In this document: piece after piece, positions 12,163-56,218 of the stretch
Layout: every line of letters begins with the position of its first letter
How positions within the stretch are numbered: position 1 is the first letter of the stretch
DNA from: an uncultured virus (IMG/VR IMGVR_UViG_3300035188_001352)
Taxonomy: Duplodnaviria > Heunggongvirae > Uroviricota > Caudoviricetes
Length of the DNA stretch: 56,937 nt
IMG/VR virus record: IMGVR_UViG_3300035188_001352
Coordinates: 62,001-118,937 of that record
Direction: 5' to 3' (one strand)
Program-made: the position numbers and the translations under genes
Notes under the pieces: model-generated
Seen by the model: the letters and a program-made list of their open reading frames with translations, nothing else
Database searches by the model: none
Told to the model about the DNA's origin: nothing

Positions 12163-12216
12163 ATAAATCGAACCTGGCTATTTGTATTTGCACCGCCAGG
12201 AGGTGCCCCCATATTA

Positions 12217-12561: not shown

Positions 12562-12687
12562 ATTATTTTGTTAGTTACATCGCCTTACGTGCTTAGCCTG
12601 AGAAAGCGTTTATCGGTTTTACCAGCACGCCCAACGGAACAAAGAGGATGTCTCAGTTACTAACCTCACTATAACTAACAAAATAAT
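12562..12687. ncRNA. Structured RNA closed by a 16-bp inverted repeat
   Basis: ATTATTTTGTTAGTTA/TAACTAACAAAATAAT enclosing a GC-richer non-coding core with CTGAG/CTCAG pairing. Confidence 0.5.
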
Positions 12688-12689
12688 GT

Positions 12690-13316: not shown

Positions 13317-13817
13317 TTTTGCTCCAAAGTTTTTCAAGAAGTGTTTCGTATTCTTTGTTCAAATACTTTTCAACCAATAAACAGAATACTTCTTGTTGTT
13401 CTTTTGTCGCAAATCTAAACTCATTGACATATTCATCATGTTCAATCAAATCAAATTTAGTATTACGCCAGAAATGACTACATAACAATTTGATACCAGG
13501 ACAATCATATGTTTCAACAACATATGGCTTGTCAATTTCAAATGCTTTATATCTGTCAGTCATTCAAAGTAAATCCTAATTCCAACAAAATCTTTTTACC
13601 TTCTTCAGAAGCTTCCTTGACTGCAAGCTCTAAGTTTGATAGAGGGAAGCCAGCAAAACCACCGCAATTTTCGCATTTTCCAAGGATAAATGAAGTATGA
13701 AACCCACCTTGTAATGGAAATCCTTCATGATGTGTTGACCTTTTGAAAGAAATATTACCTGGGCATTCACAAAGCTTACCCACATTTGGCTTTTCAACTA
13801 CTTTCTTCTTAACCCAA

Positions 13818-14642
13818 CTAAACATCAGCCTTTACTCCTCGTTCTCTATTAGTTTCAAACTTGAACCATTCAGTCATAATTAATTCAACATCGTGGTCAT
13901 AAAAACCTGAACAGTTAATGCAATTGAACTCAACTACCTTAACAACACCATCTGGTCCAAGAAGTGCAGTGTCCATAACACAACAACTATCTGGTAACCA
14001 AATGTCTGCAAGCTCTTGAGCTTCTTCAGTGATACGTTGATCAGTAACTCTTTGCTTTATTAACCTGCCATCACAACGATATAATGACCCAGAAACAACT
14101 TTTCCATCAATGATAAACCATCGCCATTCAGCCATGATATCGTGTGGAGTGTTAACCACTATCTTCGTATCTTTTGTCAATTGAGCAGCTTTACTTGTAT
14201 CAGCCGCTAAAGCATCTAAGAAGAACTTCAAACATTCCATTTTGGTCGTAACTTCTCCAGCAAACTGCTTCAAATCAAGTACTGGTCGAATGAAGATACG
14301 TTCTTCGAGTTCATGATCTAACACTGTCGATAAGTAATCGACATATTCTCCAACCGTCGTGACCAGTTCTCCATTCAACATATCGGTTCTGTTCTTTAAC
14401 GCTACTTCATAATCGAAATTGTCATTAAAATGGACACCCTGCCAGCCAAGTTCTTTTGCTTTCAAAGTTAACGACGTTGAACCATACGGAATGTATGCAG
14501 TTCCCACAAGTTCGTTATCAGAACTTATTTCATGAGAGAATGGAATAATACCAATACTCTCAAAAGGTAACTTGTCAAGAACTGGAACTAGCAACTGCAA
14601 CTGGTATTCTGAAATCAGGTTTGTCTGAAACATGAACTTCAT
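13818..14642 (-). CDS. ATP-grasp protein (DUF4343/R2K-like)
   Basis: IFIRP-x-x-DLKQFAG, EWRWFII, VMD...KVVEFNCINCSGFY; start re-assigned downstream of tRNA-Ser. Confidence 0.8.
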   Translation of the reverse strand: MKFMFQTNLISEYQLQLLVPVLDKLPFESIGIIPFSHEISSDNELVGTAYIPYGSTSLTLKAKELGWQGVHFNDNFDYEVALKNRTDMLNGELVTTVGEYVDYLSTVLDHELEERIFIRPVLDLKQFAGEVTTKMECLKFFLDALAADTSKAAQLTKDTKIVVNTPHDIMAEWRWFIIDGKVVSGSLYRCDGRLIKQRVTDQRITEEAQELADIWLPDSCCVMDTALLGPDGVVKVVEFNCINCSGFYDHDVELIMTEWFKFETNRERGVKADV

Positions 14643-14659
14643 TTGAGTTTCCTTAAAAT

Positions 14660-14750
14660 TGGCGGAGAGCGGGTGCACTTGAAGCCCAAACCATTTCTGG
14701 TTCCCACAGTTTTCAAGACTGGTCCGGCGCGCCTGTCCGGTTCACTCTCC
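14660..14750 (-). tRNA. tRNA-Ser(TGA)
   Basis: CT-TGA-AA loop, long variable arm, G73-CCA. Confidence 0.85.
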
Positions 14751-15407
14751 ATAATTCTTTCGCTATTTCAAAATCTTTATGACTTCGAATGCTTGTTCTT
14801 CTGTAATGCCCACTTCTTCTAACTTGGTTGAAACTTCTCTAGCTTTTTTCAACCAAGATTGATGTTCATGACCAATCCAATTGTGTCTTTCATTTTTTAC
14901 TTCATAATACCAACTACAACCATCAGTATGATTATGCTTGCATAATATGCCATGCAATCGAATTGCTAATTGTTTGAGCGGGTCGTTATTATCAATTTCT
15001 GCTTGAGCTTTTTCAGCTGCTTCTTTTTCTTCTTTTATCAGCTTTTCAAGCTCTGCTTTATGTTGTGCTAATTCTCTTTCCAATTCTGCTATTCTGTTAG
15101 TGCTCATCGTTATTACTCCTCTATTCATCAAAATTAGTAGTGAGTTTCCACTTGATTTCATCAGCTAATTGTTTTGCAATATCAGCACGTTTATTCATCG
15201 AACCCTGTTCATTTTGCAAAATATTCAATACTTCTAACAATACCTTATTAGCTACTTCCTGTATTGCATCACTTTGTTCTGAATCAGTTTCACTTACAAT
15301 CTTATCAATTATGCTAGTCATCGTAATCACCTGTTCATCAATTTATGGTTCTATTATAAACAGTTTTTTATAAATGTAAACACTTATTTAGTACAGACTT
15401 CACAATT

Positions 15408-15689
15408 TTACTCACCATGATATTGCCATAAGACTGCATTACAAACTGCATGAACTGCTCCAATAGTCATACCAGTATCATGAGCATGGTGTAGATGAAC
15501 TGGCCATTTGAAAAAGTTCGGTGGAAATAACGTTCTATCAATTCGCTTCCCAATCATTTCTTTAGAAGCTTTACCATCTAATGGTTGTCCACAATGACAA
15601 CACTTACCTTCCTGAAGACGAACATATTCTTCTCGAACTAACCTACGTTGAGCTGAAGATATCTTATCGTAATTGACTGGTAATTGCAT
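15408..15689 (-). CDS. Small HNH/endonuclease VII-like protein
   Basis: Q-x-G-x-CCHC...HLHHAHDTG...GAVHAVCN. Confidence 0.65.
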   Translation of the reverse strand: MQLPVNYDKISSAQRRLVREEYVRLQEGKCCHCGQPLDGKASKEMIGKRIDRTLFPPNFFKWPVHLHHAHDTGMTIGAVHAVCNAVLWQYHGE

Positions 15690-15709
15690 ATCAATCTCTT
15701 TCTAAAATT

Positions 15710-15783
15710 TGGTAGGACCAGAAAGAGTCGAACTTTCATTGACGGATTATCGGTCCGGCATTCTACCATTGAATTATGGTCCT
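15710..15783 (-). tRNA. tRNA-Ile(GAT)
   Basis: AGGACCA acceptor, CC-GAT-AA loop (C33), A73-CCA; 5' end overlaps the endonuclease stop. Confidence 0.9.
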
Positions 15784-16419
15784 AATATATTCTTCTGTTA
15801 ATTGTTCTTTCAATAAAATGAACAACTTTACATTATTTTGTTCAATTACTTTGGCTATTTTTTCTTCATCTTGTTTTGCTTTATAACTATTTTTTGGGTC
15901 TAACCAAATATCATATTCCGGTAAATAAAAATCGGCAAAGTAATTTCTGTTATCATATTTTAAAGCCTTAGGTCTCAACCACTTAATGTTCAGATTATTC
16001 AAAATTTCACTACATCTTAATTCATAACTACTCTGAAGTGTTGTTAGCTTTCCAAAACTATCAATAACTTTCGTTTTTTGGCTTCGCCCAGCATTTTCTC
16101 GATATCCACCGCCTTTAGCAGAATTTACTCTATGTTGTTCTGTATTATCTTTGTGGTATTTTTTACTGCAATAGCCATTAGGTTCATTGTTTTCATAATA
16201 CTTTTTTACGCCTAAACTATTTTCAAATACTCTTGAATCTGTTTCTTTTGTTAGACCTTTATTCCAAGCTTTTCTAATTCCATTTTTATATCCACTATTT
16301 GGATCAAAATCTATACCTCTAATCTTTTTTATTTTGACGCCATTACAACTTTTAATATGTTTTTTAAAATTATTATTAGTTATATCTTTACAACATTTTA
16401 CACAATAAGTAGTTTTCAT
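15763..16419 (-). CDS. Putative free-standing homing endonuclease (PD-(D/E)XK)
   Basis: CxxC...HxxxC Zn finger, AWNKGLTKETD-x-R, QSSYE...YFADFYLPEYDIWLDPKN. Confidence 0.7.
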   Translation of the reverse strand: MKTTYCVKCCKDITNNNFKKHIKSCNGVKIKKIRGIDFDPNSGYKNGIRKAWNKGLTKETDSRVFENSLGVKKYYENNEPNGYCSKKYHKDNTEQHRVNSAKGGGYRENAGRSQKTKVIDSFGKLTTLQSSYELRCSEILNNLNIKWLRPKALKYDNRNYFADFYLPEYDIWLDPKNSYKAKQDEEKIAKVIEQNNVKLFILLKEQLTEEYIRTIIQW

Positions 16420-16443
16420 AATAATCTCACAATCGAAAATTAT

Positions 16444-16451
16444 TATTTATA
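16444..16451 (-). promoter_or_regulatory. T4-type late promoter TATAAATA
   Basis: Exact match, 3 nt downstream of the truncated tRNA-Ile anticodon. Confidence 0.7.
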
Positions 16452-16454
16452 CAG

Positions 16455-16489
16455 ATCAGGTTCACGTTCTACCTTTAAACTAAGGAGCT
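16455..16489 (-). pseudogene. Orphan 5' half of tRNA-Ile(GAT), ending at the anticodon
   Basis: AGCTCCT-TA-GTTT-AAAGGTA-GAAC-G-TGAAC-CT-GAT followed by non-tRNA sequence. Confidence 0.8.
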
Positions 16490-16860
16490 ATTTTTGATGT
16501 CAAACCATTCTTCATTTGATAAAAGTAAACCAATTGGAACTTTTATCATAAATGATGTCATCATTATTACTGCAAGCTTTACTTACCAAATCTGAAAAAT
16601 CTTTCAATGCTGCCAAATACTTTGGCAAAACACATGTAGCATGCACTCGATACATATCGAGTTCTTCAACATAGTGAACACCTGAAAACTTCATCGTAGA
16701 CAAGACTTCCAAGTTTTCATACAAATTTTGTAGAATTGCTTTTACTACTAATTCATTTCCGTTCATCTTAGTTCACTCCACGTTCTTTAGAATATGGGTC
16801 TATTGTATACTAAGAAATCAGTAATGTAAACACTTTTTATGTGAACTGCTTCACAAAAAT

Positions 16861-16959
16861 TGGTGGTGGAGTATCCTGGTAACGCTCACAGGTGGTGACA
16901 GTCGCGAACAGTCACAGAGCTTCACGGGCTCTACCGCCTCTTTAGCGGCTTACTACTCC
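16861..16959 (-). tRNA. Atypical tRNA with GTG (His) anticodon, long variable arm and CCACCA end
   Basis: AGAGC-CC-GTG-AA-GCTCT; variable stem GTGAC/GTCAC; T-loop AGCGTTA; A73; no G-1. Confidence 0.65.
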
Positions 16960-16964
16960 GAAAA

Positions 16965-17161
16965 ACATTATAACCTTACCCACTCTCTCGAGTATCCCCA
17001 CTCTCCACGAGCAGTGAATTATACGCTATACATCCATTCCTACTTTACAATGCTCTACGCGTCGAGCTAAAGTGTTTCGCAACTTTGGTTTGCATCCTAC
17101 TTGTTCAGGCGATCAACAAGAACTTTCGGTTTTCATTTATCCCAGGGTAGAGTTATAATGT
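16965..17161. ncRNA. ~200-nt structured RNA candidate
   Basis: Terminal inverted repeat ACATTATAAC-CTTACCC/GGGTAG-AGTTATAATGT; no ORF; inner hairpins CTTGTT/AACAAG and D-arm-like GCTC-GACGCGTA-GAGC. Confidence 0.55.
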
Positions 17162-17162
17162 C

Positions 17163-17615
17163 TTAGTCAAGATAGCTATCAATATTTTTTGCTATACTTT
17201 TACTCAAGTCTTTACTCAAGTTAGTCATTATTTCAATAATCGTGAAATAAACTTCTTCATTAGTTCTAAGTTCTTTTAGTTGATGATATCTATTCAAGCT
17301 ATCAATCCATAGTTCAATAGTATTCTTATCAGGTATCAAATCAGATATCATCCATTGATGATAATCATTATACTTTGGAACTTTATTTCCTTTCAACTTT
17401 ATAATTCTTATTTGTCTAATCCATCCATCAATATCGCCCAGATGTTTATTGTAGTTCAAATCATCTTTCCATTTTAGAACTTTTATTAGATGTTCAATAA
17501 TAGGATGTGCTAATCCAGTAATTTTACTTTCAGCATCTCTTCGCGAAAATGCCATTTCATACAATATATCCAAAAAACTTTCAGTTAGATTATCAAATAA
17601 TTCTACTAGTTTCAT
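17163..17615 (-). CDS. DUF29-like helical protein with putative capsid-targeting N-terminus
   Basis: MKLVELF...LYEMA; IIEHLIK...H...I-x-x-W. Confidence 0.5.
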   Translation of the reverse strand: MKLVELFDNLTESFLDILYEMAFSRRDAESKITGLAHPIIEHLIKVLKWKDDLNYNKHLGDIDGWIRQIRIIKLKGNKVPKYNDYHQWMISDLIPDKNTIELWIDSLNRYHQLKELRTNEEVYFTIIEIMTNLSKDLSKSIAKNIDSYLD

Positions 17616-17637
17616 TTATCTTTCTCTTTTACAAAAT

Positions 17638-17712
17638 TGGCATCGCGACGGGGAGTTGAACCCCGCTTGTCGGGTTGAAAACCCGATGTCCTAACCGATA
17701 GACGACCGCGAT
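17638..17712 (-). tRNA. tRNA-Glu(TTC)
   Basis: TT-TTC-AA loop, G73-CCA. Confidence 0.9.
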
Positions 17713-17718
17713 ATAATT

Positions 17719-17806
17719 TGGTGGGGAGAGAGGGATTCGAACCCCCTGTGTTTCTGTGTGCCTGGGTTACAGCCAGGTGCCCTTCCGCCGTCAGGACAGT
17801 CTCCCC
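17719..17806 (-). tRNA. tRNA-Tyr(GTA)
   Basis: CT-GTA-AC loop, long variable arm, A73-CCA. Confidence 0.9.
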
Positions 17807-17819
17807 ATAAAATACATAC

Positions 17820-17920
17820 TCAGGATAGTAGGATTCGAACCTACGTCCCGGCATCGGGCTATATTCTCGTTAGAAAACATAGTCCAAATGCCGTGCTAAA
17901 CCAACCTCAGCTACACCCTG
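17820..17920 (-). tRNA. tRNA-Pro(TGG) interrupted by a 28-nt insert (17856..17883)
   Basis: C1:G72, A73; removing the insert restores CGGCA-TT-TGG-GA-TGCCG; acceptor extended by ACATACT/AGTATGT. Confidence 0.75.
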
Positions 17921-17936
17921 AGTATGTACTCTATTT

Positions 17937-17996
17937 TGGTCGCCTATTATAGACCGGGCGAGTAACGGTCACGTCCTTCTACCATTGGTAGATGAC
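17937..17996 (-). ncRNA. 60-nt structured RNA candidate ending in CCA
   Basis: GTC..GAC-CA closure with hairpins CTACC/GGTAG and GACCG/CGGTC. Confidence 0.4.
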
Positions 17997-18324
17997 AACT
18001 TCTTACACCGTATATTTGATTTCCAACACTTCATCTTTCATATCTAATCGCATCCCTGAATAATCACCACCTCTAGGAACATCAAAAGTGATTGAAATAT
18101 CCTTAGCATTAGGATGAATTAACTTCTTTTCTATCAACATTTGAATAATACCTACACCATCAATAAGACCAGTAACTGTTTCAGTCACAACTTTTTGTTG
18201 TATTTCAAACATCTTAGTATTCCTCACTATGTTTTACCGATTATGTGTCTATTATAATCAGATTTTCGTAAATGTAAATGGTTATTTTTGATAACTGCTT
18301 CACATTTTTACTAACTAAAAAACT

Positions 18325-18413
18325 TGGCGGAAGACTGAGGGCATGCTCCCCAAACCTTGTTAGGTTCCCATTGTTTAGCAAACAAGTTCGGTACCTTGAC
18401 CGATTAATCTTCC
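18325..18413 (-). tRNA. tRNA-Ser(GCT)
   Basis: TT-GCT-AA loop, long variable arm, G73-CCA; non-canonical T loop AGCATGC. Confidence 0.8.
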
Positions 18414-18427
18414 AGAAGAGCCTTAAT

Positions 18428-18468
18428 AACAAAAAAGGGATTCTTTTTACGGAATCCCTTTTGTAAAA
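18428..18468 (-). terminator. Intrinsic terminator of putative attenuator
   Basis: AAAAGGGATTC-CGTAAAAA-GAATCCCTTTTTT. Confidence 0.75.
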
Positions 18469-18491
18469 TCTTTATAAGTAAAACTAAAACT

Positions 18492-18632
18492 TTACAAAAG
18501 AGGTCCCCATTCAGGATAACTTCCCTCACTATCAATCGACGCCGATTCCGGTGCATATACTTCCGGTCTGGCTTCAATAGAAGAGCCATAGAACATATCA
18601 ATAATGGAAGGATCGATGATAAAAGTTTTCAT
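18492..18632 (-). CDS. 46-aa putative leader peptide (not in ORF track)
   Basis: Hand translation MKTFIIDPSIIDMFYGSSIEARPEVYAPESASIDSEGSYPEWGPLL*; its 3' end is complementary to the terminator 5' arm. Confidence 0.65.
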   Translation of the reverse strand: MKTFIIDPSIIDMFYGSSIEARPEVYAPESASIDSEGSYPEWGPLL

Positions 18633-18659
18633 TTTACTAAGTTTGTTTTGTTATAAATC

Positions 18660-18722
18660 TATTTATAGAATTTCTAAAAATTATGTAGCTATTATACCAC
18701 AATTTTTTGTGGTTGTAAACAC
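18660..18722 (-). promoter_or_regulatory. Tandem early (GTTTAC..TATAAT) and late (TATAAATA) promoters upstream of the leader
   Basis: GTTTACAACCACAAAAAATTGTGGTATAAT and TATAAATA (18660-18667) on the minus strand. Confidence 0.7.
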
Positions 18723-19283
18723 TTTATTGAAAAAATGCTAAAATTACCACTATCAATACCACAAAAACAATAAACACTCTATAAAGATATTTCAATGCTA
18801 TTGATTGCATGTTCTTATTTCTTGTTGTAGTGGTTTTTGAACCGAAGTCTGTCTTCATCAGTAAGGTCATTGCCTTCCCAATCAAGAATACCAAGCTTTG
18901 CATCTATTTGCCATTGATGTTCTGCTGATTACTTGAAGTAAACAGCAGGTCTCTCAAAGGACTTCTCAAACATTTGACGTTCAGTCATGTCTTATTACAT
19001 GCCAAAAATACTGGATAAATGTTGGCAGTTCTAACATATTTTTTTGAAGCGAAGTGTTGTTCAAATTCATCGCTAAACACCGATTTTGTAATCAATTCAA
19101 AAGGCTCATTGAGCTGTTCCATATAAAATAGTAAATACTTTCCGATTTTTGACTGAAAGTATTCTTTTGACATAGAACCTTCTTTCTCAAAATAACCATC
19201 TTTTTCCCGTTGCTCAATCATTGCACTGATTTGAGCTTCGGAAATCGGTTTATTGTTGGTAATTTGTTCGGCAAAATAATCTT

Positions 19284-19853
19284 TTATTTCCATTGATGTT
19301 CTCGTTTTGATTGATATTTCCAACTTTTTTCTGCATTGCTAAATGCTTCTCTATCCCATGCATCTGGTGGAACTGCTTTTCTTCTATATTGTATCACAAT
19401 GTCAAGCTCTTGTGCATCAACATCGTAGAAGTCATTGCGGTTAGAACCAAATGTATGTATTCTTCTATAGCTTCCAAACGCACCACGTTTTCTTCCATGA
19501 CGACGATTGTGACATCTTACTTTCCAACGATAATCACGTTGCTTTTTCCACACATCATAAAAGCCACTAATATAAGATGGAGACAACCAGTTTCCGTCTT
19601 GGTCATATGCTGCATAATACACCGGATGATTTCTAAAAGAATAAGAAAGATGTCTTGATGCTTTATCTTCATCTGATACTTTATACCAAATCTTATCCCA
19701 ATTGACAAATTGACATAGTACAGACCATTGAGAAAAGTAATTGAAAAAGTTTTCCCAAGTATCAAAGTAGTAATAAGCTACTCGTCTGCTGACTAAGCCC
19801 AAGTTATCATCTACATAATACACATAGATGCCAGGAACATTTTGTATTTTCAT
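19284..19853 (-). CDS. Hypothetical protein with basic C-terminal PDAWD..KSWK..KR..QWK motif
   Basis: ORF track with GGAG RBS. Confidence 0.6.
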   Translation of the reverse strand: MKIQNVPGIYVYYVDDNLGLVSRRVAYYYFDTWENFFNYFSQWSVLCQFVNWDKIWYKVSDEDKASRHLSYSFRNHPVYYAAYDQDGNWLSPSYISGFYDVWKKQRDYRWKVRCHNRRHGRKRGAFGSYRRIHTFGSNRNDFYDVDAQELDIVIQYRRKAVPPDAWDREAFSNAEKSWKYQSKREHQWK

Positions 19854-20199
19854 TTTGAAGCTCTCCGTTACTAAGTAAAATTACCTAGTGGAAACCTTCA
19901 TTCCTCAAATGTAGTATGTATGTCATAATGTTATTGTCCTTTTGATGCTAACATTTCTGTTAGCTTTTGTTTTATTTCAGCATCTGTCAAATCAACTTTT
20001 TCTAAAATGTCTGGAGAATATTCCCACTCTCCATCATCAGAAATCAATATTTCTTCGCTAGTACCAGTATCAGGATTTCTAGATATTGCTAACCCTAAAG
20101 GATGGAGAATATCTCGATTAATACGACGTATCAATCCTAGTTCTGACATTTGGTTCCAATTTATAGATTGTATCATTGCTTTCCAGAATACTTTATGTT

Positions 20200-20276
20200 T
20201 GGTGCATCGGGAGGGAGTCGAACCCTCAAAACCGGGCATCTTAAACCCGTACGTATGCCAATTCCGTCACCGATGC
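20200..20276 (-). tRNA. tRNA-Leu(AAG), short variable loop
   Basis: CGGGT-TT-AAG-AT-GCCCG; Leu-type D arm GACGGAATTGGCATACGT; A73-CCA. Confidence 0.75.
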
Positions 20277-20281
20277 AAATT

Positions 20282-20365
20282 TGGTACCTCTAACAGGACT
20301 TGAACCTGTACGCCATTCGGCACTTGCTCCTAAGGCAAGCGTGTCTGCCATTCCACCACAGAGGC
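20282..20365 (-). tRNA. tRNA-Leu(TAG)
   Basis: CT-TAG-GA loop, long variable arm, CCA. Confidence 0.9.
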
Positions 20366-20369
20366 TTTG

Positions 20370-20861
20370 TTACTTTTTCGACCTAAATCCTAAAGACCTA
20401 CTGTAAGATTGTAATATCATTATATCACATCTTGCTGCTTCTGTACACAAATACTTTGGGTCAGGATACACTCCAACTCGTCCTAAGTCCAACCTATCAG
20501 CATCCCAACATATCTGAGTGGTAATGTCTGCCAGAGTTGCTCCATGAGTGTGGAACATGCATGCATACCGTAAGATGCTCAGTTCAGTATCATCAAGACT
20601 AATGATACCTTTATCATTCAGTTCTTTAGCAAAATCAGCTGCTCGGTCTCCATGTCTATGATCGTGGCCATCATTCAATCGACAACTATCATGTAAGAAT
20701 GCAAACAGTTCAATGACCTTGACATTAGCTCCAGGATAGTGCGTTGCAAGTGTTAGACCATTCAACTTTACTCTTGACCAATGAGCAACTCCATGAATGC
20801 CATTCCAATCCAGTTGATACTTTTGACGAACTGTTTCAATGAGTTGCTTAGTGATGTTCAT
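20370..20861 (-). CDS. HD-domain phosphohydrolase
   Basis: HG-x-x-HW-x-RV, LHDSCR, DADRLDL. Confidence 0.85.
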   Translation of the reverse strand: MNITKQLIETVRQKYQLDWNGIHGVAHWSRVKLNGLTLATHYPGANVKVIELFAFLHDSCRLNDGHDHRHGDRAADFAKELNDKGIISLDDTELSILRYACMFHTHGATLADITTQICWDADRLDLGRVGVYPDPKYLCTEAARCDIMILQSYSRSLGFRSKK

Positions 20862-21283
20862 TATGCTACGTTTAGTGTTTTACCTTTTTGAAAATCTGCT
20901 AACTTAAGACCGCCAGTGAATTGACAATGAGCCATTTCACGAAATCGGGTCCATCTTCCAGCCCATTCTAATCCAACTGACTCAGCAATGACACCGCAAC
21001 GTTCAAATGTTTTGAGGTCTGCCCATTGTGCTTTACCATTTACAACTGGCACGAAATCAAAAGCTACTCGCCAGTTATGCCAGCTTTGACCAGGCTTAGC
21101 ATTAGTTACTTTCTTACCTGGAGTTGTACGACCTTGTGCATAGATTGCAGCTTGAGATTCCAAGTCACGATAAGTGCTAGTAATAAGAACATCAATCCCT
21201 TCTTCATCGCATTTTGCGACAAAGTCACGACACATTTTTGCAACAATTGGATGCAAGTCGTCAATATTTCTAGAGTTTTTCAT
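20861..21283 (-). CDS. M15-family peptidoglycan endopeptidase (endolysin)
   Basis: T-x-TYR...Q-x-x-x-YAQGRT...VTNA-x-x-GQSWHN-x-x-x-AFD...EWAGRW...E-x-x-H. Confidence 0.9.
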   Translation of the reverse strand: MKNSRNIDDLHPIVAKMCRDFVAKCDEEGIDVLITSTYRDLESQAAIYAQGRTTPGKKVTNAKPGQSWHNWRVAFDFVPVVNGKAQWADLKTFERCGVIAESVGLEWAGRWTRFREMAHCQFTGGLKLADFQKGKTLNVA

Positions 21284-21462
21284 AGTTGTTTCTCCAATTT
21301 ATTTTAACTTTCTAATATTTATATACTATATTATTTATTCAAAGTTGCAAAAATGGAAGTTTCAAAACATTTATTTCTATTTTTTAATGAAACTAGTATA
21401 AATATTATTTGCTGAGACTGTTATGATGAGTTTTATTATCAACAATTTAAAAGGAAATAAAA

Positions 21463-21975
21463 ATGAAAAGAGTACTACTTTTATCACTTAGTCTTTTGAT
21501 TAGTTTTTCAGCTTCTGCAGTTATTTTACCTGCAGCAGTCGGACAAACATCAGGAGACTTAAAATTTAATGGAACTGTAGCTCCATCTTGTAATCTTATG
21601 ACTTTTGTCGATGGAACAATTACTACTTCAGCAGACCAAACTCAATTATCTTCTGAAAATTCAGGTGGTTCTCCAGCTTCAGTAAGCTTACGTGCTAATG
21701 TGAATGGATATTCTTTACCATTAGGAACGCCAATTATTATTGGTCCTAATGGAGTTTTATCTGACGCGATTGTAACTTCTTCAGCAATTGGTAATGGTTC
21801 TGATTTATTTGGCGTTGCTGTAAGTCAATTTGGACCAGATGCTGCGTCTAATACATTCTTCTTTGATGGCGGAACATACAACATTGCCGTAAATGCTAAT
21901 GTTACGCGTCAAGATGGTTCTGCTTTCCCTGCTGGAACATATCAATTAAAAATACCAGTATCTTGCACAATGTAA
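21463..21975 (+). CDS. Secreted pilin/fimbrial-subunit-like protein
   Basis: Signal peptide; GDLKFNGTVAPSC start and AGTYQLKIPVSC end; late promoter TATAAATA at 21397. Confidence 0.6.
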   Translation: MKRVLLLSLSLLISFSASAVILPAAVGQTSGDLKFNGTVAPSCNLMTFVDGTITTSADQTQLSSENSGGSPASVSLRANVNGYSLPLGTPIIIGPNGVLSDAIVTSSAIGNGSDLFGVAVSQFGPDAASNTFFFDGGTYNIAVNANVTRQDGSAFPAGTYQLKIPVSCTM

Positions 21976-21982
21976 TGTAAAA

Positions 21983-22066
21983 TAATAAGTTGAGGGATAG
22001 GGAATTTATAACCCGAAAAGATTTAATCCAGGTCCTTCTCTCAACTTATTACTGGATTTATAAATT
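21983..22066 (+). promoter_or_regulatory. Structured intercistronic RNA element (long stem plus pseudoknot or alternative pairing)
   Basis: TAATAAGTTGAGGGA/TCTCTCAACTTATTA stem; loop AATCCAG and AATTTATAA can pair with downstream CTGGATT and TTATAAATT. Confidence 0.55.
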
Positions 22067-22087
22067 ATAAAGTATAAAGGACATATT

Positions 22088-22453
22088 ATGAAACAGCATC
22101 TGATAAACTTATTTATTACCTTTTTTATATCAATCCCATCAGTATTTGCAGTAAGTGTTTTTCCAAACAAAATAACTACAACCGGAGTTATTGGTACTAA
22201 AACTCCGATTCAATTTAAAATTTATGGTCACTTTGAAACTGCTTCTATAGAATTTGTAAAAGTAATTGATTTACAAAAAAATGAAGACAAAATTATTTCT
22301 GAATTTGTTTTAGGTAAAGAGCAAGAACGAATTATTCCAATTGATATTATCATAAAAGATAATTCAAAATATTATCTTTGTGCGGTTCTAAAAGATTCTC
22401 AATCAATGAGGTTAAGAACATGCTCTATAGTTACCACAAAAGTTTCTCAATAA
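22088..22453 (+). CDS. Secreted Ig-fold, pilus-chaperone-like protein
   Basis: Signal peptide, beta-rich, SVFP start, C-terminal YLC...RTC cysteine pair. Confidence 0.45.
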   Translation: MKQHLINLFITFFISIPSVFAVSVFPNKITTTGVIGTKTPIQFKIYGHFETASIEFVKVIDLQKNEDKIISEFVLGKEQERIIPIDIIIKDNSKYYLCAVLKDSQSMRLRTCSIVTTKVSQ

Positions 22454-22857
22454 TACTATTACTTATAGTTTCAAATAATGGTTATGGCTCACCAATGATG
22501 CCAATGACTCCTCAAAACTCAATTGGTGGAGATTCTGTTAGAGGACGTGATGGAACAACATGTAATCAAGGAACTCATATTGGCCCTACATTAGATTTTG
22601 GTATTACCGGAACAAAAAATACTAATGCATCTAATAGTTCAGACCCACAAGTTATCAATAATTATTATTCTAATCAAGAATCTTCTAATAATATCGCCGG
22701 TAATGACATTGGAGTTTATGCTCGAATTGTTATTCCTATTGGAGAAGAACCTGCGAGAATTGATTGCACACAACTTTACGCTTTAGAAATAGAACGATTA
22801 AAAATGGAGTTAGAAAACATGAAAAAAGCCGGTTCTTCAGCTGTTAGTATTGAATAA
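22420..22857 (+). CDS. Secreted protein with amphipathic beta-hairpin and C-terminal coiled coil
   Basis: Signal-like N-terminus; TLDFGITG and IGVYARIVIPIG strands; IDC-x-x-LY-x-LEIERLK helix; start uncertain. Confidence 0.55.
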   Translation: MLYSYHKSFSIILLLIVSNNGYGSPMMPMTPQNSIGGDSVRGRDGTTCNQGTHIGPTLDFGITGTKNTNASNSSDPQVINNYYSNQESSNNIAGNDIGVYARIVIPIGEEPARIDCTQLYALEIERLKMELENMKKAGSSAVSIE

Positions 22858-22881
22858 ATTCATTAGTTTATTCGCATTTAT

Positions 22882-22967
22882 TGGTAGCATCGCCCGGACT
22901 TGAACCGGGATAGCCGAAGCTGGCAGATTTTAAGTCTGCTGGGTATACCTAATTCCCCCACGATGCC
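22882..22967 (-). tRNA. tRNA-Leu(TAA)
   Basis: CT-TAA-AA loop, long variable arm, CCA. Confidence 0.9.
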
Positions 22968-22977
22968 ACGTATAATT

Positions 22978-23117
22978 TGAAGTGAATGAATAGGATTCGA
23001 ACCTATGACATGCTGCTTGGATTTGGATAATCATTTTCAACGGTTCAACGTGAATTGAACAAAAACTAAAAACGCTATTTTGATGGCGGCTGCTCTACCA
23101 ACTGAGCTATCATTCAC
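22978..23117 (-). ncRNA. tRNA-like RNA whose anticodon loop is replaced by a Y-RNA-type stem (circularly permuted YrlA-like)
   Basis: 8-bp acceptor GTGAATGA/TCATTCAC, canonical D and T arms; insert TTTTT-GTTCAA-TTCACG-TTGAAC-CG-TTG-AAAATG-A-TTATC. Confidence 0.65.
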
Positions 23118-23164
23118 ATTATTCTATAGAAAAATACTATTTATTCTAATACTTTTTTATAGAA

Positions 23165-23436
23165 TGACTAGCGATTAGAACATACCTGTCTAACCACCAG
23201 TCATCAAGAACCTTTGTCTTACATCTTTTTGCAAATAACCCACATGTTTGACGATGAGTTTGAGTTATATTTGACCGACACTCTAACCACTGAGTTACTC
23301 CACCCCACTTGATACTGACGAGCTATTCAATACCAAGTGGAGGTGGAAATGGGATTCGAACCCACGACTTTCGGTTTATCATAATAGAATGATAAGATTG
23401 TGCCTATTTGCAATTGTTAAGATGCCTTCCTAGTCA
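23165..23436 (-). ncRNA. Large YrlA-like RNA (T arm precedes D arm)
   Basis: TTATC...GTGGG-TTCGAAT-CCCAT, closed acceptor-like stem TCCACC..CCACTTG/CAAGTGG..GGTGGA, then TA-ACTC-AGTGGTTA-GAGT; terminal TGACTAG/CTAGTCA. Confidence 0.65.
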
Positions 23437-23441
23437 CGTAT

Positions 23442-23640
23442 GCTGAGCGATACGAAGAAGATAACTTTGTAATAGAACTGAATACTCACATAAGAGCAGA
23501 ATATGCCTGTTCTTCTACTTCCCCACAAAATATTCTATGTTGATAAAACACTTTGTGGGGAAGGATGGACTCGAACCACCACATCAATTCTAAAACGATT
23601 TACTACAATAATAAAGATAAGTTTGGCTCGTTTGTTTTCT
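23442..23640 (-). ncRNA. YrlA-like RNA, degenerate; ends approximate
   Basis: TTATC...GGTGG-TTCGAGT-CCATC followed by CTTCCCCACAAA/TTTGTGGGGAAG stem. Confidence 0.55.
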
Positions 23641-24031
23641 AATCCAGGTCAATCAAAATGGTATCACCGTCTATGACCTGGACATATCTAATCATATTTA
23701 TCATACACTGAATCATAGTCAATTCAGTTAGAACTTCTATTGCTTGATAATTTCTAAAAAATGGAGATGGAACAATTGCATTTGCAAAATCCCTAAACAT
23801 ATGAGCTCTGATTACTCCAGCTTCTATTGCTTGACCAACAGTTTCAAATACTACTTCATACACAGAATAATCAGAAAGCATATCAGGTACAATACCAGAA
23901 TATTCTGATATGACTTCTTTTAGATTTTCCATTGTAACTTCTTTAGAAGATTTTGCAAACTTCCAAATAACTTGGCCTATACCTTCAGGTCTGTACATCG
24001 AATTTTCTCTCCACTTTATTTCACAATTTGG

Positions 24032-54466: not shown

Positions 54467-56218
54467 CTATTTACACTCTTCGCTTTGCAAACTAACGGTA
54501 CTAAAGCCATTCTCCTTTATGACCAACATCTTTCTATCAAACTTATCTTCTACACCTTCACGATGCATAATGACCCAGGTTGATAGTTCATCTTCTTTTG
54601 TCTTTTGGTTTAGTAAAGCAACAACACTTTCAACCCCGGATGCACATAACGAAGCATCAATTTCATCGACAAACAGTAAGTTATCTTTTGCATGTAAATG
54701 ATGTAAGACATCTCTAAAAGCTAATGACATTGCAAGATTGACACGTTTCTTTTCGCCAGCGGATAAGTTACCAAAATCAAGTTCTCGTCCATACTGAGAC
54801 ACCATACAAGTCATATCATCTTTGAACTGTATGACATGTGGTAATCCTAATTGCTTAGCATAAGTATTCATTCTAAGATTTAGAAACGGGATAGTTCGAC
54901 TGATAATGCGACGTCTTAAGAAGCTATTCTTATCAGTCAAAAGTTTCAAAAGAAACTGTTGGTGTTCAATGGTGCTTTTCAATTCATCTAGTTTCTCATA
55001 GCTAATAGAACTTTCATTTACTTCTGACTCCATTTGTTCATATGTTTCAAAGTATGGATTTTCTGCTAGTTCGAGTTCGCGTAATTGAACTTGTAAGGTA
55101 TTCATGTTTGCTAATGTATCAAGTAACACTGGAAGATTATCATATGTCATACTTTCGTTGACTTCTTTCAATTCAGCTTGGATGTTAGTTAGCTTAGTCG
55201 TTTCTGTCGCTAGTTTTTCTTCATGCTCTTCTAAAGAAGCAACAAGAGCTAACAGCTTCTCTTCAATGTCATGTAGCTTAGAAGCTGCATCTGCCATGTT
55301 CTGTAAGCAATACGGACACTTGTCATCTTCCAAATGCTGTTGCTGTTTTAGGAGTGTTGCAATATCTTTATCAAGTCGTTCTTTAGCTCGTGTTAGCGAT
55401 GCCTTAGTTGAAGAGGTTCGTTGTTGTTCTTCTGACAACTTTGTCTTACGTTCAAATAGTTCTCGTTCATTAGTAAAGTCAATGCCTTCTACTGAAGCTA
55501 ATTGCTTGCGATAACTTATTAGCTTAGCTTCTTTCTGTTCTTCCCAACTAATGACCTTTTGTTCAAACTCTGCTAAACGTTTCTGCTTCAGCTTTGACGA
55601 AGTTTCTCGTTCTTTCAATAAGGCTTCTTCTACCTTTGCATCACTTTCACTAGTTTGAATAACCTTCTTCAGCTTTTGAGCTTTTTCGCTTAAGACTGTA
55701 ATGTTGAATAGTTCTTCAATATGAGCTCGTTGCAAACTAACCGGTAAATCAAGGAATGGCGTAGTATTACCAGCAAAGACAATTACTCTAGTAAAAAGTT
55801 CATAACTTCTACCATAGATACGTTCTATCAATGCATCAGTTTCGTTAATACTATCTGGAGTAATATCAATTCCATTTTCTTCTAAAGTTACACCGTGAGA
55901 TTCACCTCGCTTACGTTTGATTTCATATATGTCAGAACCTTTAGAAAAAAGATACTCAACTTCCATCAAAGTATTCTTTGCCGCATTAGTGATATTGATT
56001 AGTCGAGGTAAGGTGATATTATCAAAAGCTCGATTATAGACGGCATATACAATAGCATTTAGAATTGAAGTTTTACCAGCACCATTTCTAGTATTAGTAT
56101 CTATGTTTTCTCCGTAAATGAAAGTAGAAGTAGAGTCTTCAAAATTGATTTCAGTCCATTGGTTACCAAATGACATGAAGTTTCTAAAACGTAATCTTAT
56201 TGCTTTTAATCTTTGCAT
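54467..56218 (-). CDS. Recombination endonuclease subunit, SbcC/Rad50-like (gp46)
   Basis: Walker A NGAGKTS, CPYC zinc hook, LSAGEKKR signature, LFVDE Walker B. Confidence 0.95.
   Translation of the reverse strand: MQRLKAIRLRFRNFMSFGNQWTEINFEDSTSTFIYGENIDTNTRNGAGKTSILNAIVYAVYNRAFDNITLPRLINITNAAKNTLMEVEYLFSKGSDIYEIKRKRGESHGVTLEENGIDITPDSINETDALIERIYGRSYELFTRVIVFAGNTTPFLDLPVSLQRAHIEELFNITVLSEKAQKLKKVIQTSESDAKVEEALLKERETSSKLKQKRLAEFEQKVISWEEQKEAKLISYRKQLASVEGIDFTNERELFERKTKLSEEQQRTSSTKASLTRAKERLDKDIATLLKQQQHLEDDKCPYCLQNMADAASKLHDIEEKLLALVASLEEHEEKLATETTKLTNIQAELKEVNESMTYDNLPVLLDTLANMNTLQVQLRELELAENPYFETYEQMESEVNESSISYEKLDELKSTIEHQQFLLKLLTDKNSFLRRRIISRTIPFLNLRMNTYAKQLGLPHVIQFKDDMTCMVSQYGRELDFGNLSAGEKKRVNLAMSLAFRDVLHHLHAKDNLLFVDEIDASLCASGVESVVALLNQKTKEDELSTWVIMHREGVEDKFDRKMLVIKENGFSTVSLQSEECK

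What the first reader, a model, noticed from the sequence alone, without database searches (positions are those of the whole stretch)
18325..18722. Leader-peptide attenuator gating a phage tRNA array
Seen: early and late promoters, a 46-codon ORF, an intrinsic terminator, then tRNA-Ser(GCT). The ORF end GGGGACCTCTTTTGTAAAG is complementary to the terminator 5' arm (TTTTACAAAAGGGATTCC). A ribosome at the stop would allow termination, while a stalled or absent ribosome would allow antitermination. By hand count 35 of 46 residues are S, I, P, E, Y, A, G or D, the amino acids of the downstream tRNAs. The late codons AGT-GAG-GGA-AGT-TAT-CCT-GAA match the nearest tRNAs (Ser-GCT, Pro, Tyr, Glu). Inference: the phage senses tRNA depletion or cleavage and induces backup tRNAs. 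Caveat: further promoters lie downstream (~18251, ~16802) and the leader RBS is weak.
Basis: partly seen in the sequence, partly recalled or inferred. Interest (0 to 1): 0.85.

Follow-up and report, generated by a model that had tools for sequence, protein, structure and literature searches.

The report
Leader-peptide switch before phage tRNAs
A tiny gene joined to a switchable transcription stop sits just before a serine tRNA gene of a giant lake phage and is spelled mostly in the amino acids of the tRNAs that follow, so it may let the phage sense slow decoding, but nothing has yet been tested at the bench.

Summary
On the - strand there is an early-type and a T4-late-type promoter, then a 46-codon ORF with gene-like codon usage but no Shine-Dalgarno. 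A hairpin follows whose 5' arm is the ORF's last codons plus the stop. That hairpin can sequester the whole 5' arm of a strong intrinsic terminator. A divergent tRNA-Ser(GCU) starts 20 nt after the terminator stem.

The competing pairing is the strongest of 41 terminator-like hairpins in the record (4 of 2000 shuffles reach it). The two folds are nearly isoenergetic. 35 of 46 residues belong to the next eight tRNA types (8 of 701 real protein windows do as well).

The closest cultured relative, Ralstonia phage RsoM2USA, has an unrelated 37-codon ORF with the same layout before a different tRNA block. It is spelled in that block's amino acids (32 of 37). Four more distant jumbo phages showed nothing similar (0 of 29 ORFs).

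Only the 89-nt tRNA lies between the terminator and the next strong promoter, so "gating the array" is overstated. Sensing of tRNA cleavage is untested.

I read the element as a probable (about 0.5) leader-peptide-type attenuator of a tRNA gene. Earlier notes of this scan report the same idea on other phage DNA. I found no published case.

The parts
18691..18719 (-). Early sigma70-type promoter (TTTACA, 17 nt spacer, TG-extended TATAAT). It is a member of the phage's repeated promoter family but lacks the family's upstream palindrome.
   Evidence: 11 of 12 matches; family listing; repeat copies.
18660..18667 (-). T4-late-type promoter motif TATAAATA, 27 nt upstream of the ATG.
   Evidence: 14 copies on the - strand against 4 on the +, with 7.1 expected per strand. 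Several copies lie 25-45 nt before gene starts.
18622..18638 (-). Region 1: the translation start region (AGUAAAAUGAAAACUUU). It can pair with the post-stop stretch 18493..18477.
   Evidence: I2: 17 nt, 88% complementary; duplex -12.5 kcal/mol, with 3 of 173 ORFs as strong; pair probabilities of about 1 in untranslated RNA.
18492..18632 (-). 46-codon leader-like ORF, MKTFIIDPSIIDMFYGSSIEARPEVYAPESASIDSEGSYPEWGPLL.
   Evidence: Codon-usage score 0.366 against 0.374 +/- 0.137 for real genes, above 3000 of 3000 out-of-frame windows. No Shine-Dalgarno. Six natural variants.
18486..18507 (-). Region 2: the 5' arm of the competing (antiterminator) hairpin. It covers codons 42-46, the stop codon and 6 nt beyond.
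   Evidence: (I1).
18451..18472 (-). Region 3: the 3' arm of the competing hairpin. It contains the whole terminator 5' arm (18462..18452).
   Evidence: The stretch is also a 15-nt direct repeat (87%) of the -35 region of the promoter at 18719 (D2).
18423..18462 (-). Intrinsic terminator: 11-bp stem, 8-nt loop (18462..18433), then a U tract.
   Evidence: -13.2 kcal/mol. In my scan no other terminator-like hairpin lies on the - strand between window 18462 and 37143.
18325..18413 (-). Non-canonical type II tRNA-Ser(GCU) gene with an encoded CCA and the T loop AGCAUGC. Its 5' end is 20 nt after the terminator stem.
   Evidence: sub-threshold only; family with compensatory changes in Otagovirus phages and Xanthomonas phages X1 and BUDD.
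18251..18278 (-). Next strong family promoter, with the upstream GTGAAGCAGTTATCA element. It marks the downstream border of what read-through alone can control.
17638..17920 (-). Next tRNAs downstream: Pro(UGG, with a roughly 28-nt insertion), Tyr and Glu. Their amino acids, with Ser and Ile, make up 26 of the 46 leader residues.

Best explanation
The element is a leader-peptide-type transcription attenuator placed in front of a phage tRNA gene.

Shown:
- Transcripts from the early and late promoters carry a 46-codon ORF.
- The ORF's last five codons and stop codon form the 5' arm of a hairpin.
- The 3' arm of that hairpin contains the entire 5' arm of a strong intrinsic terminator.
- The tRNA-Ser(GCU)-like gene starts 20 nt after the terminator stem.

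Inferred mechanism:
- A ribosome that reaches the stop codon covers the 5' arm, so the terminator forms and transcription stops.
- A ribosome that lingers on codons 26-41 leaves the 5' arm free. These are 16 consecutive Ser/Pro/Tyr/Glu/Ile/Ala/Gly/Asp codons, with AGU at positions 35 and 38.
- The competing hairpin then forms first and RNA polymerase reads on into tRNA-Ser. That read-through adds to transcription of the tRNAs beyond.
- Without any translation, the start region pairs with the post-stop region and the terminator forms.

The element would thus tie tRNA output to how fast the matching codons are decoded. It strictly controls only the 89-nt tRNA-Ser gene, because a strong promoter follows.
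For: Structure:
- The stabilisation from pairing the terminator 5' arm with upstream sequence is -11.6 kcal/mol. That is rank 1 of 41 hairpins in the record, reached by 4 of 2000 shuffles and 0 of 2000 native windows.
- The extended competing hairpin scores -21.5 kcal/mol against -19.5 to -22.0 for terminator folds. The estimated barrier between them is about 8 kcal/mol.
- Untranslated nascent RNA folds with region 1:2 and the terminator at probabilities of about 1.
- The 1:2 duplex of -12.5 kcal/mol is matched by 3 of 173 ORFs.

The ORF:
- Its codon usage is that of real genes.
- It has its own early and late promoters.
- 35 of 46 residues lie in the next eight tRNA types. 12 of 20000 random amino-acid orders reach this, as do 33 of 2901 or 8 of 701 real protein windows.
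- Two AGU codons lie in the 10-codon stall window (P=0.017).
- No family-type promoter lies between the terminator and the tRNA.

Independent parallel in RsoM2USA (capsid protein 60% identical):
- It was found by structure alone. It is the only terminator-like hairpin within 60 nt upstream of a tRNA in that phage's tRNA region.
- Its stabilisation of -11.1 kcal/mol is rank 1 of 21, reached by 11 of 2000 shuffles.
- A 37-codon intergenic ORF precedes it, and the ORF's last codons form the competing arm.
- 32 of 37 residues lie in the nine types of the next ten tRNAs. 0 of 5000 random orders and 4 of 986 protein windows reach this.
- Swapping the two peptides against each other's tRNA sets gives 16 of 46 and 13 of 37 by direct count.

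Survey and other loci:
- Survey of this phage, RsoM2USA and XacN1: 4 of 24 small intergenic ORFs match the downstream tRNAs at calibrated P<=0.02. 0 of 22 match the upstream tRNAs.
- A second leader-like ORF in this record precedes the Lys-Phe-Trp-Arg-Val-Met-Thr-Cys-Gln block, with 16 of 21 residues in the set and 1 of 702 windows reaching it.
Against: - There is no Shine-Dalgarno. The anti-SD energy of +0.7 is weaker than in 92% of 173 ORFs.
- There is no tandem run of one codon. AGY codons number 2 of 46 against 0.95 expected, with P(>=2)=0.24 over the whole ORF.
- At equilibrium the terminator is not excluded. Core pair probability is 0.59 on the local piece and about 1 in the whole untranslated leader.
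- The barrier is modest at about 8 kcal/mol.
- A strong promoter at 18278..18251 re-starts transcription right after the tRNA-like gene, so the array does not depend on read-through.
- The gated tRNA is missed by ARAGORN and Rfam. Its T loop differs from its own relatives at positions I number 55 and 58, so it may be decaying.
- A weak promoter-like site (TTTACA-16-AAGAAT, 9 of 12) overlaps the terminator.
- Four further jumbo phages gave 0 of 29 matched ORFs, against 1 of 25 in the upstream control. The phage Phosso has a terminator before a tRNA without either feature.
- One natural variant of the peptide (P0006) has a different C-terminus that starts exactly at region 2.
- Leader B has three His codons, yet Rfam found no tRNA-His in its block.
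- No relative carries this very locus with sequence differences, so the hairpins have no covariation support.
- There are no usable expression data.
Confidence: 0.5

Rival explanations
1. This is an ordinary ORFan cassette of the PeSL kind. A small acidic protein gene has its own promoters, and a compound stem-loop/terminator merely insulates neighbouring units in the hyperplastic tRNA region. The cassette was inserted upstream of a tRNA-Ser gene, which is now poorly expressed and decaying. The competing hairpin and the composition match are by-products or chance.
For: - The codon usage is gene-like.
- Six natural peptide variants keep the frame through three indels, though they were found by protein search, which biases towards intact frames.
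- Variant P0006 keeps residues 1-43 but has another C-terminus.
- The record has a repeated promoter family with upstream palindromes.
- The 3' arm of the hairpin repeats the -35 region of the promoter at 18719 (D2). The terminator lies between a TTTACA and a weak -10-like hexamer. PeSL elements are described this way (PMC2839356, section 14 read; PMC4122927, abstract and introduction read).
- The T loop of the tRNA-like gene is deviant.
- 0 of 29 ORFs matched in four other phages.
Against: - The rank-1 competing pairing and the composition match both recur at a non-homologous locus in RsoM2USA.
- The match is directional: 4 of 24 for downstream tRNAs against 0 of 22 for upstream tRNAs.
- The peptide has no homologue outside its own cluster among 1.84 billion representatives.
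- It has no PHROG family.
Confidence: 0.27
2. This is a constitutive timing or processing element. The bistable hairpin-terminator acts as a leaky stop that sets a fixed low level or a delayed onset of tRNA-Ser transcription, as in T4 where early transcription is extended into later genes. Alternatively, the roughly 20-bp hairpin is an RNase III or stability site that separates the mRNA from the tRNA precursor. In neither case is decoding sensed.
For: - The folds are nearly isoenergetic with a low barrier.
- The T4 review states that middle RNAs, including tRNAs, arise partly by extension of early transcription (PMC2988021, passages found with 'find').
- PeSL stem-loops are described as terminator/attenuators (PMC2839356, section 14).
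- XacN1 and leader B of this record have a hairpin over or after the stop codon but no U tract.
Against: This does not explain why the ORFs are spelled in the amino acids of the downstream tRNAs in this phage, RsoM2USA and XacN1. It also does not explain why the stop codon lies inside the competing arm in both terminator-bearing loci.
Confidence: 0.12
3. This is a chance constellation in AT-rich DNA. It is an untranslated ORF beside a terminator, with fortuitous complementarity and composition.
For: - The AU-rich arms pair promiscuously. 6 of 173 other start regions pair as well with this post-stop stretch.
- The 5'UTR-to-tail pairing is not unusual, with 1099 of 2000 native windows as strong.
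- A Met-rich mini-ORF before tRNA-Met proved to be an out-of-frame artefact.
- The top-8 residue types cover 35 or more of 46 residues in 28.5% of real windows when the set is chosen freely.
Against: - Shuffle and native-window controls argue against chance.
- So does the codon-usage score.
- The tRNA order fixes the amino-acid set.
- The architecture is repeated in RsoM2USA.
Confidence: 0.08

Closest known systems
Ribosome-mediated leader-peptide attenuators of amino-acid operons (trp, his, leu, thr, ilv, pheA; multivalent thr and ilv leaders). Named from my own knowledge.
   Same: A short ORF ends about 65 nt before the end of an intrinsic terminator. A competing hairpin has a 5' arm that a terminating ribosome would cover. 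A further upstream segment can pair with that arm in untranslated RNA. The leader is enriched in the amino acids relevant to the downstream genes.
   Different: - The downstream gene is a tRNA, not a biosynthetic operon.
- The leader has 46 codons and is enriched in eight amino acids, without a tandem run.
- It has no Shine-Dalgarno.
- The upstream partner (region 1) is the start codon region itself.
- It lies in a phage and is driven by early and late promoters.
- A promoter follows directly after the first gated gene.
PeSL composite promoter/stem-loop cassettes of T4-type phages (Arbiol et al. 2010, PMC2839356; Comeau et al. 2014, PMC4122927).
   Same: - A repeated strong sigma70-like promoter family.
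- ORFans in a hyperplastic region.
- The stop codon sits in an AT-rich stretch upstream of a TTTACA box.
- A stem-loop terminator lies between that box and a -10-like hexamer.
- The phage belongs to the T4 capsid superfamily.
   Different: - The -10-like hexamer is weak (AAGAAT).
- The downstream gene is a tRNA without a Shine-Dalgarno.
- The stem-loop has a statistically unusual competing hairpin that includes the upstream stop codon.
- PeSLs are not reported to match downstream tRNA content.
T-box riboswitches (recalled from my own knowledge).
   Same: Both link the supply of a given tRNA to read-through of a terminator.
   Different: T-boxes bind uncharged tRNA directly, need no translation, and control synthetase and amino-acid genes in Gram-positive bacteria. 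No T-box or other Rfam cis-regulatory family matched here.
Phage tRNA sets as a counter to host tRNA depletion (eLife 2023, PMC10264068, passages read; Nat Commun 2024, PMC11555353, abstract in the listing only).
   Same: These papers give the rationale for a phage to keep, and possibly regulate, a near-complete tRNA set.
   Different: They concern tRNA sequence features and rescue. In PMC10264068 I found no mention of promoters or terminators (0 occurrences).

Membership tests
Leader-peptide transcription attenuator | Promoter, short ORF and intrinsic terminator in one transcript, with the ORF ending shortly before the terminator | tested here: met
   The stop codon lies 29 nt before the stem and 67 nt before the end of the U tract.
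Leader-peptide transcription attenuator | An antiterminator that overlaps the leader's 3' end and sequesters the terminator's 5' arm | tested here: met
   All 11 nt of the 5' arm are paired in the extended hairpin. It scores -21.5 kcal/mol against -19.5 to -22.0 for terminator folds. Rank 1 of 41 hairpins; 4 of 2000 shuffles reach it. Caveat: the barrier is only about 8 kcal/mol.
Leader-peptide transcription attenuator | An upstream segment (1:2) that restores termination when the leader is not translated | tested here: inconclusive
   The start region pairs with the post-stop stretch at -12.5 kcal/mol. 3 of 173 ORFs are as strong. Probabilities are about 1 in the untranslated ensemble. The partner stretch is generally sticky (6 of 173).
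Leader-peptide transcription attenuator | Clustered regulatory codons placed so that a stalled ribosome leaves the antiterminator arm free | tested here: inconclusive
   Codons 26-41 are 16 consecutive residues of the downstream tRNA set. AGU codons at 35 and 38 give P=0.017 for a 10-codon window. There is no tandem run, and AGY codons overall are 2 against 0.95 expected.
Leader-peptide transcription attenuator | The leader is efficiently translated | tested here: inconclusive
   Codon usage is typical of genes, the second codon is AAA, and the leader is A-rich and unstructured. There is no Shine-Dalgarno. No ribosome profiling data are available.
Leader-peptide transcription attenuator | Downstream genes depend on read-through | tested here: inconclusive
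   Met for tRNA-Ser(GCU), apart from a weak 9-of-12 promoter-like site inside the terminator. Not met for the rest of the array, because of the promoters at 18278 and 16830.
Leader-peptide transcription attenuator | Leader content co-varies with the controlled genes in relatives | tested here: inconclusive
   Positive in RsoM2USA. Positive by composition in XacN1. 0 of 29 ORFs in Xoo-sp13, RAS14, Phosso and PA5oct.
Leader-peptide transcription attenuator | Read-through responds to the supply of charged tRNA | not testable with these tools
   This needs reporter, Term-seq or coupled in vitro assays.
PeSL promoter/stem-loop cassette | A repeated strong sigma70-like early promoter motif | tested here: met
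   About 22 copies of TTTACA-N16/17-TATAAT-AGAC.CATAT on the - strand; 6 copies found by BLAST.
PeSL promoter/stem-loop cassette | A stem-loop terminator within or next to the promoter boxes | tested here: inconclusive
   The terminator lies between TTTACA (18467..18462) and AAGAAT (18445..18440), 9 of 12 matches. The -35 context repeats that of the promoter at 18719 (D2). The region after the -10 does not match the family.
PeSL promoter/stem-loop cassette | Flanks ORFans in a variable region, with indels between close relatives at its borders | tested here: inconclusive
   The ORFan status is shown. Variant P0006 breaks at the start of region 2, but its DNA could not be fetched.
Canonical tRNA (Rfam RF00005) | A score above the family or program threshold | tested here: not met
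   ARAGORN calls it only at -ps80, a setting that is uninformative (67 calls on the reversed genome).
Canonical tRNA (Rfam RF00005) | A cloverleaf kept through compensatory changes | tested here: met
   5 sequences and 25 pairs, 98.4% paired, 12 pairs changed on both sides, 0 of 500 shuffles reaching this.
Canonical tRNA (Rfam RF00005) | The conserved T loop (T54, Psi55, C56, A58; numbering and consensus recalled) | tested here: not met
   The loop is AGCAUGC here and AUCRAGA in the four relatives.
T-box riboswitch | A match to the Rfam T-box model | tested here: not met
   No such match on 9000-24000 at E<=1.

The most novel reading that the evidence does not exclude
The phage's near-complete tRNA set is divided into regulons, each headed by a small test ORF spelled in the amino acids of the tRNAs that follow.

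- Leader A is the focal ORF. It precedes Ser-Pro-Tyr-Glu-Ile-Ser-Ala-Gly-Asp.
- Leader B lies at record 61447..61382. It precedes Lys-Phe-Trp-Arg-Val-Met-Thr-Cys-Gln.
- The two share a similar late promoter and an MKTF start.

Slow decoding would flip the RNA switch and raise output of exactly the tRNAs that are short. The slowdown might come from codon-usage mismatch, starvation, or host tRNA-cleaving defence. This would be a multivalent leader-peptide attenuation of tRNA genes, a control logic so far described only for amino-acid operons. RsoM2USA would share it.
Probability: 0.3. Interest if true: 0.9.

Novelty: new variant of a known kind. Interest (0 to 1): 0.66.

Why it matters
Why phages carry tRNA genes, and whether they regulate them, is an old open question. 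Recent work ties phage tRNAs to escape from host tRNA-targeting defences.

A translated test ORF wired to a terminator in front of tRNA genes would be the first case of leader-peptide attenuation controlling tRNA supply. It would give a direct sensor of decoding speed. The idea is testable with a roughly 400-bp fragment.

My searches found no published description. I ran four literature searches. I also read passages of the RsoM2USA and XacN1 genome papers, which do not contain the words terminator, leader or attenuat. Supplements of those papers were not read.

The work also shows a family of tRNA-Ser(GCU) genes that standard tRNA finders miss.

Tried and rejected
Searches for relatives of the locus:
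- BLAST of the locus against 50,697 phage records gave no match in near mode. In distant mode only the tRNA-Glu/Tyr part matched.
- Scans of viral and metagenome contigs with the peptide alignment and the neighbouring protein returned only identical DNA (L007, L011, L012). Three distant loci without tRNAs also came back.
- No covariation test of the hairpins was therefore possible.
- The DNA of variants P0001, P0002 and P0004-P0006 could not be fetched.

Expression:
- RNA-library contigs of runs X7 and X19 bridge the terminator and the tRNA. They may be DNA carry-over and show neither ends nor levels.
- Run X20 has no contig on 18230-18760, which is no evidence either way.

Rejected readings and dead ends:
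- A structured non-coding RNA in place of an ORF: the ORF body has z=-0.35.
- 5'UTR-to-terminator-tail pairing: not unusual, 1099 of 2000 native windows as strong.
- My first test of ORF composition against the next tRNA used ORFs of 30 or more codons. It was not significant (991 of 20000 label permutations, and 1534 of 20000 without the focal ORF).
- A Met-rich 16-codon ORF before tRNA-Met lies out of frame inside a 61-codon gene and was dropped.
- A tRNA-His predicted from the HHH in leader B was not found by Rfam.
- The alternative C-terminus of P0006 has no counterpart in the record.
- PHROGs, a profile search of 1.84 billion proteins and the ESM Atlas (best score 0.88) gave no relatives of the peptide.

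Corrections to my own analysis:
- My early reading that the competing hairpin leaves the terminator core free rested on a piece cut too short. It was corrected.
- In the survey my filter dropped the focal ORF, because a spurious 61-codon ORF in another frame overlaps it.
Full report
**What the window is.** The window is bases 62001-118937 of a 118,937-base IMG/VR virus record, estimated 35% complete. Its sequence occurs in lake-water metagenomes of many studies. The major capsid protein is 60% identical to that of Ralstonia jumbo phage RsoM2USA and 55% to Xanthomonas phage XacN1, with more distant T4-like hits. Nearly all genes around the finding lie on the - strand. ARAGORN finds 20 tRNA genes in the record. 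Rfam adds interrupted tRNAs at 17920..17820 and 23116..22982 and a weak type II hit at 14750..14664.

**The observation: promoters, ORF and terminator.** On the - strand the order is as follows.
- A promoter TTTACA-17-TGnTATAAT at 18719..18691, 11 of 12 matches. It belongs to a family of about 22 promoters with the consensus TTTACA-N16/17-TATAAT-AGAC.CATAT.
- A TATAAATA motif at 18667..18660. The motif is strand-biased (14 against 4, with 7.1 expected) and often lies 25-45 nt before gene starts.
- A 46-codon ORF at 18632..18492.
- An intrinsic terminator at 18462..18433 with a U tract.
- 20 nt after the terminator stem, an 89-nt cloverleaf with anticodon GCU and an encoded CCA, at 18413..18325.
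- A second family promoter at 18278..18251.

**Is the tRNA real?** ARAGORN at default settings and Rfam do not call it, even at E<=10 on 141 nt. ARAGORN calls it only at a threshold that also yields 67 calls on the reversed genome. That call alone is therefore worthless. BLAST found weak matches to unannotated places in Pseudomonas Otagovirus phages and in Xanthomonas phages X1 and BUDD. It also matched annotated tRNA-Ser genes of other phages. Aligned with the four unannotated relatives, 98.4% of stem cells pair and 12 of 25 pairs change on both sides. 0 of 500 shuffles reach this. ARAGORN and Rfam also miss the element where I scanned for it, in phiPsa267 and X1. So this is a real family of non-canonical tRNA-Ser(GCU) genes. 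The copy here has a T loop (AGCAUGC) that departs further from the norm than its relatives' AUCRAGA, which leaves its activity open. In those relatives the gene follows a CDS or another tRNA directly, without a small ORF and terminator.

**Is the ORF a gene?**
- Its per-codon usage score (0.366) sits at the median of 46-codon windows of long genes of the phage (0.374 +/- 0.137). It lies above all 3000 out-of-frame windows. Its other two frames score -0.31 and -1.04.
- The ORF body is not unusually structured (z=-0.35).
- It lacks a Shine-Dalgarno, with an anti-SD energy of +0.7, weaker than 92% of 173 ORFs.
- Six natural variants exist. They carry in-frame indels at ESA[S]ID. One has a different C-terminus from residue 44 on.
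- No relative exists outside this cluster.

**The RNA switch.** The stretch GGGGACCUCUUUUGUAAAGUUUU covers codons 42-46, the stop codon and 6 nt beyond. It pairs with AAGAUUUUACAAAAGGGAUUCC, which contains the whole 5' arm of the terminator.
- Adding the terminator arm to the 60 nt upstream stabilises the fold by 11.6 kcal/mol. This is the largest value among 41 terminator-like hairpins in the record (next best 6.5). 4 of 2000 dinucleotide shuffles and 0 of 2000 native windows reach it.
- On the nascent piece 18515..18433 the extended competing hairpin scores -21.5 kcal/mol and the terminator folds -19.5 to -22.0. The ensemble holds the terminator core at 0.59. A path search gives a barrier of about 8 kcal/mol from the competing hairpin to the terminator.
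- An earlier calculation on a shorter piece had wrongly suggested that the core stays free.
- In the untranslated leader from the early start site to the end of the stem, the start region (18638..18622) pairs with the post-stop stretch (18493..18477) and the terminator forms, both at probabilities near 1. That duplex (-12.5 kcal/mol) is matched by 3 of 173 ORFs.
- The stop codon lies 67 nt before the end of the U tract. From my own knowledge this is about the spacing in classical attenuators.

**Composition.**
- 35 of 46 residues are S, P, Y, E, I, A, G or D, the types of the next tRNAs on the - strand. The proteome fraction of this set is 0.471.
- With the order of downstream tRNAs fixed and the cut-off left free, 12 of 20000 random amino-acid orders do as well. 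So do 33 of 2901 or 8 of 701 real protein windows.
- If the set may be chosen freely, 28.5% of windows reach 35. The tRNA order is therefore what gives the count its meaning.
- Residues 26-41 are 16 in-set residues in a row (direct reading).
- AGY codons, the ones tRNA-Ser(GCU) reads, number 2 against 0.95 expected. Both lie in the ten codons before the competing arm (P=0.017).

**Relatives.** Earlier notes of this scan describe leader-like ORFs before tRNA genes in other phages. They made me test public relatives myself.

*RsoM2USA.*
- In its 69.5-kb tRNA region, exactly one terminator-like hairpin lies within 60 nt upstream of a tRNA.
- It has the largest competing-pairing value of 21 hairpins (-11.1 kcal/mol), reached by 11 of 2000 shuffles and 6 of 2000 native windows.
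- It is preceded by an unannotated intergenic 37-codon ORF whose last codons form the competing arm.
- tRNAs Met, Ile, Asn, Asn, Gln, Lys, Arg, Phe, Ala and Val follow.
- 32 of 37 residues belong to these nine types. 0 of 5000 random orders and 4 of 986 protein windows reach this.
- The two leaders do not fit each other's tRNA sets (16 of 46 and 13 of 37 by direct count).

*XacN1.* A 41-codon ORF lies between tRNA-Asn and tRNA-Phe, with 35 of 41 residues in the next eight types (0 of 66 windows). It has a hairpin over its stop codon but no U tract. Its counterpart in Xoo-sp13 matches only weakly (calibrated 0.084).

*Survey.* I tested the longest intergenic ATG-ORF of 20-80 codons that ends within 130 nt of a tRNA block.
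- In this phage, RsoM2USA and XacN1, 4 of 24 ORFs matched the downstream tRNAs at calibrated P<=0.02. 0 of 22 matched the upstream tRNAs. The focal ORF was dropped by my filter and is not among the 24.
- In Xoo-sp13, RAS14, Phosso and PA5oct, 0 of 29 matched downstream and 1 of 25 matched upstream.
- The feature is therefore not general among jumbo phages. It is concentrated in this phage and its nearest relatives.

*A second leader in this record.* A 21-codon ORF, MKTFMSKRFRCHHHQRWCVKL at 61447..61382, precedes Lys, Phe, Trp, Arg, Val, Met, Thr, Cys and Gln. 16 of 21 residues are in the set and 1 of 702 windows reaches this. It shares a similar TATAAATA context and an MKTF start with the focal ORF. 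It has no canonical terminator. Its three His codons have no tRNA-His that Rfam can see.

**Reading.** Three things together make a translation-sensing attenuator the best single explanation, at about 0.5:
- a statistically unusual, nearly isoenergetic terminator/antiterminator pair that includes the stop codon;
- gene-like coding with its own early and late promoters;
- a composition that tracks the downstream tRNAs here and, independently, at a non-homologous locus in the nearest relative.

The shown steps are the sequence features and their statistics. Translation, stalling and regulated read-through are inferred.

The main rival (0.27) is an ordinary ORFan cassette of the PeSL kind known from T4-type phages. 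Those cassettes combine a strong early promoter with a stem-loop terminator and flank orphan genes (PMC2839356, section 14 and passages; PMC4122927, abstract and introduction). The repeated promoter family fits this reading. So do the -35-like box in the hairpin's 3' arm, the altered C-terminus of one variant and the deviant tRNA.

A strong promoter follows the first tRNA, so the array is not gated as a unit. Nothing bears on tRNA cleavage.

**Literature.** Full-text searches for phage tRNA genes with leader peptide or attenuation found no such description. The RsoM2USA paper annotated only ORFs above 50 residues and does not contain the words terminator, leader or attenuat (passages). The XacN1 paper does not contain them either, nor the word promoter. 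Supplements were not read.

Noticed in passing
window 17820-17920 (-): tRNA-Pro(UGG) scores 43.9 bits in Rfam but carries an insertion of about 28-30 nt just 3' of the anticodon. This is a short intron-like insert in a phage tRNA gene.
   Followed up: partly
window 22982-23116 (-): A second interrupted tRNA scores 45.3 bits over 135 nt. ARAGORN reads it as Phe(GAA) with a 46-nt insert. Its identity and the nature of the insert are not resolved.
   Followed up: no
window 14660-14750 (-): A sub-threshold type II tRNA is read as Ser(UGA) by relaxed ARAGORN and as a 31-bit tRNA-Sec-like hit by Rfam. It is 79% identical to an unannotated place in Rhizobium phage RHph_I1_18.
   Followed up: partly
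window 18325-18413; L013 1495-1583; L017 375-463; L014 1472-1563; L018 372-463: A family of tRNA-Ser(GCU) genes has an A at the first T-loop position. It occurs in Pseudomonas Otagovirus phages and Xanthomonas phages X1 and BUDD. The records leave it unannotated. ARAGORN and Rfam missed it in the two records I scanned, phiPsa267 and X1. Compensatory changes support it.
   Followed up: yes
window 18289-18303, 16840-16856 and about 20 further sites in the record: The promoter family carries an imperfect palindrome about 10 nt upstream of the -35 box (GTGAAGyAGTTATCA, or TGATAACTAGTTATCA in some copies). It may be an operator for a phage regulator or the stem-loop part of a PeSL-like element. The promoter of the focal ORF lacks it.
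   Followed up: partly
L029 7883-7948 (-), record 61447..61382: A 21-codon ORF, MKTFMSKRFRCHHHQRWCVKL, lies behind a TATAAATA motif and before the block Lys-Phe-Trp-Arg-Val-Met-Thr-Cys-Gln. 16 of 21 residues are in these types. It has alternative hairpins but no U tract.
   Followed up: partly
L029 1006-1053 (-), record 54552..54505: A 15-codon ORF with four Gln codons in a row lies 48 nt before tRNA-Gln. Its stop codon sits inside a strong hairpin (-20.9 kcal/mol) that has no U tract.
   Followed up: no
RsoM2USA MG752970.1, - strand, about 76.7 kb (stitched position 36697-36762): A 21-codon ORF, MGEMPVRVWILRRRSSGRYKA, with six Arg residues lies 32 nt before a tRNA-Arg (calibrated P 0.012).
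   Followed up: no
window 16860-17160: A G+C-richer stretch without a sizeable ORF lies between two genes of the tRNA region. Part of it resembles tRNA ends. No Rfam match at E<=1.
   Followed up: no
window 15763-16419 (-) and 38429-39976 (+): Homing-endonuclease-like ORFs (PHROG matches) lie inside the tRNA region and next to the capsid gene. This fits a mosaic, invaded region.
   Followed up: no
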